From the NCBI GenBank assembly GCA_020353515.1, contig CP070695.1, positions 1,077,584 through 1,141,583 of the forward strand: a stretch of 64,000 nucleotides of DNA. The letters run 5' to 3'. How positions within the stretch are numbered: the stretch's first letter is position 1; each line of letters begins with the position of its first letter. Positions 34,965-61,801 of the stretch are shown here, piece after piece. Below the pieces are notes generated by a model that was not told the DNA's origin, did no database searches, and saw only the letters and a program-made list of their open reading frames with translations. Position numbers and translations under genes: made by a program. This stretch comes from Candidatus Heimdallarchaeota archaeon (lineage in GTDB: Archaea > Asgardarchaeota > Heimdallarchaeia > Hodarchaeales > Hodarchaeaceae).

Positions 34965-34981
34965 CGATTTTGAGTATTTAT
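34965..34981 (+). promoter_or_regulatory. Variant promoter motif CGATTTTGAGTATTTAT
   Basis: Matches the motif upstream of the repair genes. Confidence 0.5.
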
Positions 34982-35058
34982 ACCTCCCCTCCATAATCTT
35001 CACCAGAGACTATATACTAATATCATTTAACAGATGATTTATTTCTGAGGATACATCA

Positions 35059-35397
35059 GTGTTTCGGGATCAGGTTCGTCTTGTGGCATTAGATGGTCTT
35101 TTTAAAGAATGTCTCTTTTTAATCACGTCTAACGATAACGCTGCTGTTTATTGTCTCAAGTTTAAACTCTGGAATGAACCCTGCCCCAAAATGTGTGATC
35201 AGTATGTCCCAAGTGAGCCAGGCAATATTGAAGAGGCAAAACAGGCAAATTACGATATTGAATGTCTGGATTTCACTCGAAAACTCGTGGAGGGTGAACC
35301 CGAGTTTTACTGCTCTCTCTATAACTTGACAAAACCTCTCTGTAAAGAGTGTCTCTTTCATCGTTATGCAGAGGATCCTTCTATAAACAAAGAGTGA
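35059..35397 (+). CDS. Small protein with two Cys4 modules
   Basis: Two C-x14/15-C-x9-C-x2/3-C units. Confidence 0.75.
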   Translation: MFRDQVRLVALDGLFKECLFLITSNDNAAVYCLKFKLWNEPCPKMCDQYVPSEPGNIEEAKQANYDIECLDFTRKLVEGEPEFYCSLYNLTKPLCKECLFHRYAEDPSINKE

Positions 35398-35582
35398 GTT
35401 TTTGCCACAAAGACTAATTTTTTAATTATTGTCTTACCTGTACTCAGAGGTGGGTTGCAGAATAATGAAAATCCTCCTCTAGTTGGTGTGTTTTTCTTTA
35501 AAGAAGCTGGAACTCCATCATTTCTTACTATACTAGGATTCATTGTAGAGTAGAAACAGTTTGAGGATCAAGATGTGATCTC

Positions 35583-36086
35583 ATGATTCAAGTTGCGAGA
35601 GCTGATCCTATAAGAGATTCCCAAGATATTGCGACACTAATTCAAATATGTCGAACAGAGAAAAAAACTGTGTTAAATGAGTATACAGCTGACGAGGAGA
35701 GAGAGTACATTACAAATCTTCCTCCTAGAGATGCAGTGTTTGTCGCACGCGTCATTGATGGCCCGTTTGCTGGATTTGCTTCTATTAATAAGCGTTATCG
35801 TCACAGTGAGCGTCTTAAGCATTGTGGAGAGACTGGTACTTGGATAATGCCTGCTTTTCGAAGACAGGGAATTGGGAAGGTCTTATGGGAAAAAGGAATA
35901 TTTCCTTGGTGTCAAAAACATGGATTTAAACATTTAGGATTTTCCATATTGGCTGATAATAGAGAAGGAATATACTTCTATGAAAGTCTTGGATTTCGGG
36001 TTTGTGGTTACCACCGAAAATTGGTCTATGGTTATGAGGGAACTTTCATAGATGCTATAGAAATGGAATTATGGCTTCAAAAATGA
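35583..36086 (+). CDS. GNAT acetyltransferase
   Basis: FRRQGIG, N..GIYFYESLGF. Confidence 0.9.
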   Translation: MIQVARADPIRDSQDIATLIQICRTEKKTVLNEYTADEEREYITNLPPRDAVFVARVIDGPFAGFASINKRYRHSERLKHCGETGTWIMPAFRRQGIGKVLWEKGIFPWCQKHGFKHLGFSILADNREGIYFYESLGFRVCGYHRKLVYGYEGTFIDAIEMELWLQK

Positions 36087-36206
36087 ATTGTAATAGGAGA
36101 ATCTCGTATTAATCTTAAAATTATTGAAATAATAGGATAATATGGTAATTTCCCATCCGTAAAATGCAGAATCATAGAGTTATCACATGCATTGTGAATT
36201 CCTAGT

Positions 36207-59700: not shown

Positions 59701-60489
59701 GTGTTGAATTTGGAAAGGTGTTGGACTTGTGGGAAAACGATTAAAGAAGGATCACCACATCTTCACTTCTGTTCTACACAATGTCAAAGAGCTTATTCAA
59801 TGGATCAAAAAGATTTCGATAAGAAGCAGAGTTTAAAAAGAATAAAAGGAGCCAAAAAAGGATTATGGACGATTCCGTGTCCATATTGTAATGTAACATT
59901 AGACTTGACAACAGAATTTAATTTTTGTTCAGAATGTGGACAAGAAATACATGAAAGATTGTTTTTTCTTAGGAAACCAGATTCTAGTAAAGAAACGTAC
60001 ACCTTTAGTTACAAAGATAAGCGGGGTTTCATCACAGGATTCACAGCCCAAAGATCTGGAAAATTACCTAATTGTAAAATTCTTGACAATGATGGATCAG
60101 TAATAGGAGAAATCAGGGGCAATCTTCTTTTTACTAGAGGGAGAACCTCTGAATTATCTGAAACAGCCAAAATACTCACAGACAAGATTGAAACTACTTT
60201 TGGTTTATTCACAGCAGAGAGACAGTCTGAGGAAAGTATTTCAGTAATAGACTCACACGGAACCAGTTGTTTTAATATTCATGCTTTAGAAGAAGCATCA
60301 TTACAGGGACAACAACGCTGGAAGAGAGTTTCCAGAGGCTTGGGATTTGACCTTCACGAATTGAGAGATTTCCGCGTTTTATCAAATGGGAAATTAGATC
60401 CCTGTTTTATCTTTTTAGCGTCGATATCAATTCTTGAAGGAATGTTTAGACTAGTAAAACGGGTTCGTCGCGATTCAGAGGGCGACTGA
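59701..60489 (+). CDS. Double Zn-ribbon protein with a possible Tubby-C/scramblase-like domain
   Basis: CWTCGK..FCSTQC; CPYC..FCSECG; ILDNDGSVIGEIRG; terminal hydrophobic helix LDPCFIFLASI. Confidence 0.65.
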   Translation: MLNLERCWTCGKTIKEGSPHLHFCSTQCQRAYSMDQKDFDKKQSLKRIKGAKKGLWTIPCPYCNVTLDLTTEFNFCSECGQEIHERLFFLRKPDSSKETYTFSYKDKRGFITGFTAQRSGKLPNCKILDNDGSVIGEIRGNLLFTRGRTSELSETAKILTDKIETTFGLFTAERQSEESISVIDSHGTSCFNIHALEEASLQGQQRWKRVSRGLGFDLHELRDFRVLSNGKLDPCFIFLASISILEGMFRLVKRVRRDSEGD

Positions 60490-60561
60490 TTTTTCATTTT
60501 TAAAATTTGAAGGTACAATGATCTTATGGATTGAATCTAAACCTAATTTTAATTTATCCTT

Positions 60562-61326
60562 CTAATCTTTACAGATCCACTTAAATTCACAGGTTTTACA
60601 GGGTGGATTTTTTGGAGGATCAAAATTTTCCTCTCTAATAGCTATCTGAAAATTCTTTAGAAAAATATCTAAGTTGTTAAAATCACTTGAATTTAATTCC
60701 CGAAATATTAGATTCATTCTATAGTAATCAATGTATAAAAAACTCTGAGGAATAAATTCCATTGGTTTTAAAATACGAGCATATAGAGCGGCCTGTAGAG
60801 TCACTAAACGTTGTGTATGGGGAAAATCACTTCGAAATGTTTGGATGAGTATCAACGCAGAATTGTTAGAATATCTAAAAACAGCAGATGGCCGTCCTTG
60901 TAAATTTAGACTGGGAGCTTGGATAAATTCGTTAACCATAATGGGTAAAAAGTTCTCTTCTGTTTCCCACAAATTGAGAATTAACCATAGTAATAATGTA
61001 AAAACCTTCTCATCTAGTTCTCGAAAGGTTGGCTCTTCATTTCTAGCAAATTTTTCTAGATGATTACGGAATTTTGAACTTAATAGGTACTCTAATTCAA
61101 AACGTGTCCTTGGACGGGTCTTTGCATCCCATAAGCTTAGAGCGGAAAAGAAACCAGAGGTAAATGTGTCTATTCTTTCTTGAACTGAAGAATTATTTGT
61201 GGAGATTAAACTTAAATGATGCATCCACCGATAAGAAAAGGATCGTGGGCAGAATAGATACTCTTTTACAAGAGAGGGAGAGATATATCTCAAAAGAATG
61301 CCTCTATATCGGAACAGGACATTCAA
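60562..61326 (-). CDS. Cas4/AddB-like Fe-S PD-(D/E)xK-fold protein with degenerate active site
   Basis: ISPS..EYLFCPR, LQGRPS, LQAALYA, CKTCEFKWIC. Confidence 0.78.
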   Translation of the reverse strand: MNVLFRYRGILLRYISPSLVKEYLFCPRSFSYRWMHHLSLISTNNSSVQERIDTFTSGFFSALSLWDAKTRPRTRFELEYLLSSKFRNHLEKFARNEEPTFRELDEKVFTLLLWLILNLWETEENFLPIMVNEFIQAPSLNLQGRPSAVFRYSNNSALILIQTFRSDFPHTQRLVTLQAALYARILKPMEFIPQSFLYIDYYRMNLIFRELNSSDFNNLDIFLKNFQIAIREENFDPPKNPPCKTCEFKWICKD

Positions 61327-61750
61327 TTTGAATTATTCGATGGTGGAAGGATTGTAATAACCCTCGCGAAAGGAGAAACATTGTTTTTCGTAATCTGTCT
61401 TCTGGAGTCAGCGCAAATGCAGTTGATCTATCTGAATCAGGAGTGACTATGCGTACCCCCAGGCCAAGTAATCTTCCTTCAACTGTGTATATAACAAAGA
61501 ATAGTTGAAATTCAACGGGAGAGGTATTTCTACTAAATTCTTGTCTAATAAATCGTTGAGTTTGAATGGGAATTATACTTTCCAAGTATTCAATTCGATC
61601 TTTCCATTGTTCACATATGATGAAAAACTCCTCGTAGTAGTAGTTCATGAAATCAGCACTTAGAACGCTATCATATGTTCCGCATGTCAAGAAGAAGAAT
61701 AGATTCTCATATAGAAGCGATTCAGGATCCTGCACAAAATTCGACAACAT
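61304..61750 (-). CDS. Hypothetical protein coupled to the Cas4-like gene
   Basis: 148-aa ATG ORF overlapping the downstream gene. Confidence 0.7.
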   Translation of the reverse strand: MLSNFVQDPESLLYENLFFFLTCGTYDSVLSADFMNYYYEEFFIICEQWKDRIEYLESIIPIQTQRFIRQEFSRNTSPVEFQLFFVIYTVEGRLLGLGVRIVTPDSDRSTAFALTPEDRLRKTMFLLSRGLLQSFHHRIIQIECPVPI

Positions 61751-61759
61751 GGTACCATC

Positions 61760-61801
61760 TCTGAGATAGATAGGTGTTAACCAGTTATATACTCAAAATC
61801 G
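61760..61801 (-). promoter_or_regulatory. Variant promoter CGATTTTGAGTATATAA-N13-ATCTATCTCAGA
   Basis: Near copy of the radA promoter architecture. Confidence 0.65.

What the first reader, a model, noticed from the sequence alone, without database searches (positions are those of the whole stretch)
34965..61801. Shared non-canonical promoter motif marks the repair genes: a possible archaeal SOS-like regulon
Seen: six promoters align without gaps. They are radA CGATTCTGAATATAAAA (49475-49459,-), surface operon CAATTTCTAGTATTTAA (49484), Cas4-like operon CGATTTTGAGTATATAA (61801-61785,-), helicase CAATTTTTCGTATTAAA (37516), TGATTTCAAGTATAAAT (40329) and CGATTTTGAGTATTTAT (34965). Consensus YRATTYYNMRTATWWAW, with weaker copies at 42576-42592(-) and 42614-42630(+). 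A pyrimidine-rich block replaces the purine-rich BRE seen at other promoters here (e.g. GAAAAACTTAAATA before the SBP gene). Established: Sulfolobales damage-induced genes carry an ANTTTC element beside BRE/TATA. Inference: an alternative TFB or an activator controls this set.
Basis: partly seen in the sequence, partly recalled or inferred. Interest (0 to 1): 0.85.

Follow-up and report, generated by a model that had tools for sequence, protein, structure and literature searches.

The report
Shared promoter motif of a Hodarchaeum recombination island
A 17-base promoter signal, conserved across a whole genus of Asgard archaea (Hodarchaeum, close relatives of eukaryotes), marks nearly every conserved transcription unit of one 30-kb island of recombinase, helicase, nuclease-like and cell-surface genes, so these genes are probably switched together, but it is not a genome-wide SOS-type repair regulon.

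Summary
All six sites are at the stated coordinates, and the two weaker copies at 42.6 kb are also there. A ninth copy lies at 31105-31121(-).

- Orthologous promoters in about 20 species of the same genus (Ca. Hodarchaeum by record titles) keep the element GATTTYRARTATWWAAR while the flanks diverge.
- A matrix built only from other species, and only from other promoter families, ranks each G000 site 3rd to 23rd of 2866 upstream regions.
- Matches cluster in the island in G000 (P about 3e-7) and independently in G010 (P about 2e-8).
- An 881-aa gene that sits in the island in relatives has moved 600 kb away in G000 and still carries the motif.

The motif is not the generic promoter. tRNA, TFB and TBP promoters lack it, and window upstream regions split into scores of 11.4 or more versus 8 or less.

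It is also absent upstream of canonical repair genes elsewhere: three other RadA paralogues, two HerA-NurA pairs, Hef, XPF, PolY and four Orc1/Cdc6 genes. It does precede a surface-protein operon and luxE-luxC. The result is an island-specific co-regulation element. The regulator and the trigger are unknown, and DNA-damage induction is untested.

The parts
31105..31121 (-). Motif copy AATTTCTAATATATAAA (15.5 bits) upstream of luxE-luxC. It lies only 11 nt from the conserved luxE start.
   Evidence: The luxE promoters of G010 (21.0 bits) and G006 (16.2 bits) carry the motif 50-70 nt from the start.
34965..34981 (+). Motif copy before the 112-aa gene (35059-35397)
   Evidence: Scores 15.3 bits. 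Kept at the same 75-76 nt distance in the two nearest relatives only, G017 and G014.
37516..37532 (+). Motif copy before the MrfA/YprA-type DEAD+MZB helicase (37566-40331)
   Evidence: It is the weakest reader site (11.4 bits). Orthologues keep TTTTCGCATT / TTTTCGAGTAT, and the motif-to-ATG spacing is fixed in 16 of 18.
40329..40345 (+). Motif copy overlapping the helicase stop codon; promoter of the 373-aa gene, whose conserved start is probably the ATG at 40379
   Evidence: GATTTTGAGTATAAATACT or similar is present in 19 orthologues.
42575..42591 (-). Weaker motif copy before the 168-aa / TPR 172-aa operon (42545-41516)
   Evidence: Scores 12.6 bits. Equivalent copies occur in G001 and G008.
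42615..42631 (+). Motif copy before the 91-aa Cys-rich ORF (42686-42961) and the Hef-like 635-aa gene (42967-44874)
   Evidence: Scores 15.6 bits. Equivalent copies occur in G011, G010, G001 and G008.
49459..49475 (-). Motif copy before the RadA paralogue (49392-48370) and XPD-like helicase (48350-46605) operon
   Evidence: Scores 17.3 bits. Conserved in 14 orthologues.
49435..49446 (-). Second block ATCTATCTCAGA, 12 nt after the TATA of the radA promoter (predicted about -11 to +1)
   Evidence: only two exact copies in the genome, both at this position in motif promoters. ATC..AGA is kept in radA and 881-aa orthologues.
49484..49500 (+). Divergent motif copy before the 1605-aa Ig-like surface protein operon (49520-58314: YdjM, two unknowns, RadB-like ATPase, CBM96)
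   Evidence: Scores 16.3 bits. ATTTCTAGTATAWAA is conserved in the orthologues.
61785..61801 (-). Motif copy before the 148-aa gene (61750-61304) and the Cas4-like PD-(D/E)XK gene (61326-60562)
   Evidence: Scores 18.5 bits. Conserved in 10 orthologues.
61760..61771 (-). Second copy of ATCTATCTCAGA, 13 nt after the TATA of the Cas4-like operon promoter
31105..63971 (.). Syntenic island. The gene order 458-aa / 148-aa / Cas4-like / RadB-like / surface operon <> RadA-p / XPD-like / Hef-like <> 168-aa / TPR / 373-aa / MrfA helicase <> luxEC is conserved across the genus. G000-specific inserted genes in it lack the motif.

Best explanation
The element is a composite core promoter. It has a TATA-like octamer (RTATWWAA) that is directly preceded by a conserved T-rich block (G/A, A/T, TTT, Y, R, A), where ordinary promoters of this genome have a purine-rich BRE.

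The element sits in front of eight or nine transcription units of a roughly 30-kb island that is syntenic across the genus Ca. Hodarchaeum. In G000 it also sits in front of two island genes that have moved elsewhere in the genome.

The most likely mechanism is that a dedicated DNA-binding factor recognises the block next to the TATA box. This factor would either be an activator that replaces the missing BRE-TFB contact or a repressor that occludes TBP/TFB. Either way, the island would be transcribed as one unit of regulation.

A subset of the promoters (radA, the 881-aa gene, the Cas4-like operon) carries a second conserved block, ATCTAT..AGA, around the predicted start site. This may be a second operator or an initiator.

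Shown here: the motif, its conservation, its restriction to the island, and its difference from generic promoters. Inferred: that a specific factor binds it, the sign of regulation, and the inducing signal.
For: - Exact sites.
- Conservation in orthologous promoters of five families across 10-19 species each, with diverged flanks.
- Leave-one-family-out ranks of 3-23 out of 2866.
- Island clustering in G000 and independently in G010.
- Same intergenic nodes in six species maps.
- The relocated 881-aa and 289-aa genes keep the motif at 16.8 and 17.7 bits. Where the 881-aa gene follows radA directly it has no promoter of its own.
- Bimodal scores in the window, and G000-specific inserted genes lack the motif.
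- Generic promoters differ.
- Fixed 30-nt distance from the TATA end to the ATG in 16 of 18 helicase orthologues, consistent with a real TATA and a very short leader.
- Activators acting at weak-BRE promoters are an established archaeal mechanism (TFB-RF1, PMC5937170; EarA, PMC5512572; Orc1-2, PMC6061795).
Against: - No transcription start sites or expression data exist for this organism, so promoter function and co-regulation are inferred from sequence only.
- No candidate regulator was identified. The two conserved small island proteins I modelled gave poor or uninformative folds, and the Zn-ribbon protein at 59701-60489 is G000-specific.
- The G000 luxE copy is too close (11 nt) to the conserved start codon to act as a standard TATA for it.
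- The helicase copy is weak (11.4 bits; 9.9 when left out).
- Orthologous sites are related by descent, so counts across species overstate independence.
Confidence: 0.6

Rival explanations
1. The T-rich block is a variant BRE read by the second TFB paralogue, so the island is the regulon of an alternative general transcription factor rather than of a classical regulator.
For: G000 encodes two full-length TFBs (1328.6 kb and 4730.4 kb) and one TBP. The block occupies exactly the BRE position. TFB-paralogue-specific programmes are known in Sulfolobus and haloarchaea (PMC6101594; bioRxiv 10.64898/2026.09.06.749720, listed).
Against: Only about 10-15 promoters in 4.9 Mb carry the element, and the rest of the genome is at null level. 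That is few for a general-factor paralogue. Neither TFB gene carries the motif or lies near the island. Specificity of the two TFBs was not examined.
Confidence: 0.2
2. One reading: a DNA-damage (SOS-like) regulon, with the element acting like the Sulfolobales ANTTTC damage-response element bound by an Orc1/Cdc6 paralogue or served by a TFB3-like factor.
For: - Gene content is rich in a recombinase, helicases and nuclease-like proteins.
- The core TTTYR resembles part of the S. islandicus 20-bp consensus AATAGTTTCRGWDTACTCWS.
- G000 has four Orc1/Cdc6 genes.
- As in Sulfolobales, where ups and ced genes carry the damage-response element, cell-surface genes here share a motif with DNA-transaction genes.
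Against: - Canonical repair genes elsewhere in the genome lack the motif.
- Strict ANTTTC is present in only 2 of 9 window copies.
- luxE-luxC and surface genes are included.
- The shared core is short and T-rich, so the resemblance carries little information.
- No expression data are available.
Confidence: 0.12
3. The element is only a constitutive core-promoter flavour, for example a strong TATA context kept by selection for expression level, with no dedicated factor and no co-regulation.
For: Half of the information is in the TATA-like part. No regulator was found. Archaeal core promoters tolerate BRE variation.
Against: The upstream block alone places each site in the top 0.04-1.8% of TATA-anchored positions. 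The same non-canonical block is kept at nine promoters of one island, and at genes that left the island, but is essentially absent from about 2850 other upstream regions.
Confidence: 0.07
4. Chance similarity among AT-rich promoters picked by eye.
For: The consensus was derived post hoc from six chosen sites, so the shuffle test is circular.
Against: Independent matrices, leave-one-family-out ranks, cross-species conservation and replication of the clustering in G010 all argue against chance.
Confidence: 0.01

Closest known systems
Sulfolobales DNA-damage-responsive element (ANTTTC within AATAGTTTCRGWDTACTCWS), bound by Orc1-2, with TFB3 as co-activator (PMC6061795, PMC6101594)
   Same: A short T-rich element lies in the core promoter region of a limited gene set. 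That set mixes DNA-transaction genes with cell-surface or DNA-exchange genes. Both elements share a TTTYR core.
   Different: The lineage is different (Asgard versus Thermoproteota). The consensus differs, and the strict hexamer is present in only 2 of 9 copies. Here the element abuts the TATA at a fixed register. The regulon is confined to one syntenic island. No binding or induction data exist.
Activator-dependent archaeal promoters with weak BRE (TFB-RF1 in Pyrococcus, PMC5937170; EarA at fla promoters, PMC5512572)
   Same: A non-consensus BRE is combined with a conserved factor site next to the core promoter. This offers a plausible way for one factor to switch a small gene set.
   Different: In those systems the factor site lies upstream of the BRE and the factors are known. 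Here the conserved block replaces the BRE itself and no factor is identified.
Bacterial LexA/SOS regulon
   Same: The idea of one cis element placed before recombinase, helicase and nuclease genes.
   Different: There is no palindromic LexA box. The motif is not at canonical repair genes genome-wide. The transcription machinery is archaeal. Whether a LexA homologue exists was not tested.
TFB-paralogue-specific promoter classes (Sulfolobus TFB2/TFB3, haloarchaeal TFBs)
   Same: There are two TFBs in the genome and the variant sequence sits at the BRE position.
   Different: The known paralogue regulons are large, whereas this set is about a dozen promoters.

Membership tests
Sulfolobales DDRE / Orc1-2 damage regulon | Hexamer 5'-ANTTTC-3' in the promoter | tested here: not met
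   Only 49484 (CAATTTC) and 31105 (AAATTTC) contain it among the 9 window copies. The consensus from 74 orthologous sites is [G/A][A/T]TTT[C/T].
Sulfolobales DDRE / Orc1-2 damage regulon | Element lies in the core promoter, tens of nt upstream of the start codon | tested here: met
   Sites lie 18-77 nt upstream of starts.
Sulfolobales DDRE / Orc1-2 damage regulon | Bound by an Orc1/Cdc6 paralogue and required for damage induction | not testable with these tools
   G000 has four Orc1/Cdc6 genes, but binding and induction need experiments.
Canonical archaeal BRE-TATA core promoter | Purine-rich BRE (cRnaAnt / RNWAAW) directly upstream of the TATA | tested here: not met
   The seven nt before RTATWWAA are 54% T and 33% purine in 74 sites. 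tRNA promoters of the same genome show a purine-rich BRE.
Canonical archaeal BRE-TATA core promoter | TATA box about 25 nt upstream of the transcription start | tested here: inconclusive
   No TSS data are available. A fixed 30 nt from TATA end to ATG in 16 of 18 helicase orthologues, and 33-39 nt in the 148-aa family, are consistent with this. The G000 luxE copy at 11 nt is not.
Genome-wide SOS-type repair regulon | Same element before the canonical repair genes of the genome | tested here: not met
   Best scores are -5.9 to 7.4 bits upstream of three RadA paralogues, two HerA-NurA pairs, Hef, XPF, PolY and four Orc1/Cdc6 genes, against 11.4-18.5 bits for the eight copies in the PWM hit list and 15.5 for luxE.
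Genome-wide SOS-type repair regulon | Promoter-positioned matches exceed a null genome-wide | tested here: not met
   Outside the window there are 2 hits at 14 bits or more, against 0-6 for permuted matrices.
Alternative-TFB promoter class | More than one TFB paralogue encoded | tested here: met
   Two full-length TFB genes and one TBP.
Alternative-TFB promoter class | Variant BRE used at many promoters across the genome | tested here: not met
   About 10-15 promoters only.

The most novel reading that the evidence does not exclude
The island is a single inducible module that couples a cell-surface apparatus with a dedicated recombination set. The surface part is a giant Ig-like protein, membrane proteins and a RadB-like ATPase pair. 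This would be a functional analogue of the Sulfolobales Ups/Ced damage-induced DNA-exchange system, switched by one novel factor, in the archaeal order proposed as the closest relative of eukaryotes.
Probability: 0.12. Interest if true: 0.85.

Novelty: new variant of a known kind. Interest (0 to 1): 0.62.

Why it matters
Almost nothing is known about gene regulation in Asgard archaea, and I found no paper describing promoter classes or regulons in Hodarchaeales. This finding provides three things:
- a well-supported cis element;
- a defined set of target promoters;
- a conserved island that groups a lineage-specific RadA paralogue with helicases, nuclease-like proteins and a surface operon.

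This turns [quoted passage not shown] into a testable question. The tests are TSS mapping, footprinting with the two TFBs, pull-down of the binding factor, and expression after DNA damage. Cultured Hodarchaeales now exist (bioRxiv 10.1101/2025.02.26.640444). They belong to another family, and whether they carry the island has not been checked.

Tried and rejected
- A home-made EM motif search on all 2866 upstream regions drifted to a weak T/A-rich signal and was dropped.
- A strand-asymmetry k-mer comparison in tandem intergenic regions mostly found terminator T-runs.
- The six-site matrix is overfitted, so it was replaced by the orthologue-derived matrix.
- Rfam found nothing in the window.
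- PADLOC gave only generic helicase and Cas4 domain hits and no complete defence system. The defence-island reading is therefore not supported, but it is not excluded.
- AlphaFold models of the 168-aa and 148-aa island proteins reached pLDDT 49.5 and 68.9. Foldseek on the 148-aa model gave no hit at E <= 0.001, so no regulator candidate emerged.
- The Zn-ribbon 262-aa protein (59701-60489; weak TFIIB Zn-ribbon hit) was considered as a TFB3-like factor. It is absent from the island in five other species.
- The MrfA-type helicase was not found in the two other-family genomes of the order. Both are fragmented and 80-85% complete, so the depth of the island beyond the genus is unresolved.
- The 881-aa protein is unrelated to the XPD-like helicase. 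Its HerA/DUF87 assignment rests only on ESM-Atlas similarity and remains a lead.
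Full report
**Organism and setting**

The window is G000:C1:1077584-1141583 of a closed 4.94-Mb, 36% GC archaeal genome. Record titles of the closest RadA loci name Candidatus Hodarchaeota, Hodarchaeum mangrovi and Heimdallarchaeota MAGs. The genome therefore belongs to the GTDB genus that holds Ca. Hodarchaeum (Hodarchaeales, Asgard).

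**The observation**

All six sites lie 18-77 nt upstream of gene starts. The whole genome has only 15 matches, and the other nine are not promoter-positioned. Because the consensus was fitted to the six sites, this count proves little, and a matrix built from the six sites is overfitted. I therefore looked for evidence that does not depend on those six sequences.

**Conservation**

I fetched orthologous loci from about 20 species of the genus for the RadA paralogue, the helicase, the Cas4-like operon, the 881-aa gene and the 112-aa gene. In each promoter family the same element is kept while the flanks diverge. Examples:
- GATTYTGARTATAWAA before radA, and ATTTCTAGTATAWAA on the divergent strand.
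- TTTTCGCATTAAAA or TTTTCGAGTATTTAA before the helicase.
- GATTTTGAGTATAAATACT between the helicase and the next gene.
- GATTTTRARTATATAA before the 148-aa/Cas4-like operon.

Aligning 74 non-G000 sites gives GATTTYRARTATWWAAR, at about 15 bits. Per-family consensus lines show that only these columns, plus a second downstream block in some families, are conserved. The 34965 site is kept only in the two nearest relatives.

**Independent statistics**

- Scanning G000 with the orthologue-derived matrix gives 7 promoter-positioned hits at 14 bits or more, 5 of them in the window. At 12 bits or more there are 13 hits, 6 in the window. Column-permuted matrices give 0-6 and 4-16 hits respectively.
- To avoid relying on shared descent, I left out each promoter family in all species and rebuilt the matrix. 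The left-out G000 site still ranks 3rd, 5th, 23rd, 18th and 4th of 2866 upstream regions. The 9-nt upstream block alone falls in the top 0.04-1.8% of TATA-anchored positions.
- A degenerate pattern run on all 22 genomes exceeds its reversed control in most genomes, by up to about 3-fold. In G010, 8 of 45 matches fall within the 31 kb of that species' island. Binomial P is 2e-8 for G010 and 3e-7 for G000.

**Not the generic promoter**

- Flanks of TATA-like heptamers genome-wide are at background composition.
- tRNA promoters show a purine-rich BRE plus TTTATA, and none of the 37 scores above 5.8 bits.
- The TFB and TBP promoters lack the motif.
- Within the window, upstream regions are bimodal. 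The conserved island units score 11.4-18.5 bits and every other region scores 8.0 or less. The low group includes the first 30 kb and the genes inserted into the island only in G000.

**The island**

Maps for six species show one conserved gene order:

458-aa / 148-aa / Cas4-like / (289-aa) / RadB-like / 145-aa / 350-aa / YdjM / 1600-aa Ig-like surface protein <> RadA paralogue / (881-aa) / XPD-like / Hef-like / Cys-rich 91-aa <> 168-aa / TPR / 373-aa / MrfA-type helicase <> luxE-luxC.

Motif copies sit at the same intergenic nodes in every species. Domain assignments come from Pfam, NCBIfam and PADLOC.

The window RadA is one of four paralogues. It is 68-91% identical within the genus and about 46% identical to the other three. 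RadA paralogue clades in Heimdallarchaeia are already described (PMC12722695).

In G000 the 881-aa and 289-aa genes lie 600 kb away, at 1.73 Mb, yet carry strong copies of the motif (16.8 and 17.7 bits). In relatives the 881-aa gene lies inside the island. Where it directly follows radA it has no promoter of its own. Where it is separate it has the motif, a purine-rich spacer and ATCTAT..AGA. This argues for a regulon signal rather than a positional accident.

**Not a general repair regulon**

The three other RadA paralogues, both HerA-NurA pairs, Hef, an XPF-like gene, the Y-family polymerase and four Orc1/Cdc6 genes have best upstream scores of -5.9 to 7.4 bits. Conversely, the motif precedes a surface-protein operon and luxE-luxC. 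Beyond the window and the two relocated genes, the other strong hits precede unrelated genes (an HTH regulator, a methylase, AdoHcy hydrolase, GTP cyclohydrolase II) and are at null frequency.

**Architecture**

- In the helicase family the distance from the aligned 25-mer to the ATG is 26-27 nt in 16 of 18 orthologues. That is about 30 nt from the TATA end and implies a very short leader.
- The 148-aa and 373-aa families have 33-39 nt, and radA has 44-88 nt.
- The radA and Cas4-like promoters share the exact 12-mer ATCTATCTCAGA, 12-13 nt after the TATA. These are the only two copies in the genome. Related ATC..AGA blocks are kept in radA and 881-aa orthologues.
- Divergent pairs place the T-rich blocks centrally and the TATA boxes outward.

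**Mechanism**

The conserved block takes the place of the BRE. The simplest reading is a site for a dedicated factor next to TBP/TFB. This would resemble activators at weak-BRE promoters (TFB-RF1, EarA) or Orc1-2 at the Sulfolobales damage element, whose 20-bp consensus shares a TTTYR core with this motif.

An alternative-TFB model is possible because there are two TFBs. However, the set of targets is small for a general-factor paralogue.

I could not name a regulator. Two conserved small proteins gave poor or uninformative models. Damage inducibility is untested.

**Literature**

I found no description of promoter classes or regulons in Hodarchaeales. One preprint reports an oxygen-responsive bidirectional globin promoter in another Asgard family. 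Cultured Hodarchaeales strains with 7.9-Mb and 6.75-Mb genomes exist, and they are not this genome.

**Verdict**

The interpretation as a special, co-regulated promoter class is well supported. The label "SOS-like regulon of the repair genes" is not supported as stated.

Noticed in passing
G000 genome 1727773-1731354 (L065:773-4354, minus strand): The 881-aa gene (possible HerA/DUF87-type ATPase by ESM-Atlas only) and the 289-aa gene are island genes in relatives. In five species the 881-aa gene lies directly downstream of radA. In G000 both genes are relocated 600 kb away and keep the motif.
   Followed up: yes
window 31094-31121: The luxE motif copy ends only 11 nt before the conserved start MTIATI, too close for a standard TATA-to-start distance. 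In G010 and G006 the spacing is 50-70 nt. The longest-ORF start at 31161 is probably wrong.
   Followed up: partly
window 35059-35397 and G000 4343376, 3209579, 325173, 3163890: The 112-aa protein belongs to a multi-copy family, with 5 copies in G000 and up to 7 in relatives. It is often divergent from the 148-aa/Cas4-like operon. One paralogue (325 kb) also has a 16.6-bit motif copy upstream.
   Followed up: partly
window 32871-37406, 45064-46590, 58326-60489: Genes present in the G000 island but not in the islands of five other species lack the motif and look like later insertions. They are the 654-aa, GNAT, 399-aa, 147-aa, Ig-like 294-aa, Zn-finger 417-aa and Zn-ribbon 262-aa genes.
   Followed up: partly
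G008:C27 (L116/L117), island positions 18893-18986: G008 has a duplicated divergent promoter pair with four motif copies between radA and the surface gene. Its radA paralogue and its helicase each contain an in-frame stop (TAG and TGA).
   Followed up: no
G000 genome 2333099 and 2804467: ARAGORN calls two tRNA-Pyl genes in this genome. This was not verified, and no check was made for pyl genes or TAG usage.
   Followed up: no
motif columns before the TATA (e.g. 49484-49492): Read on the opposite strand, the T-rich block looks like the canonical BRE string (for example AATTTCG becomes CGAAATT, compared with cRnaAnt). It could therefore be an inverted BRE-like sequence at the BRE position. This was seen by eye only, and its meaning is unclear.
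   Followed up: no
window 46605-48350 (-): The XPD-like helicase downstream of radA matches a PADLOC type IV CRISPR-associated DinG model over its full length (E 3.6e-49). This is better than its partial match to the rad3 subfamily model.
   Followed up: no
G000 genome 1486184-1489251: Another RadA paralogue lies divergent from an Orc1/Cdc6 paralogue, with an 866-nt gap. Neither gene carries the motif.
   Followed up: no
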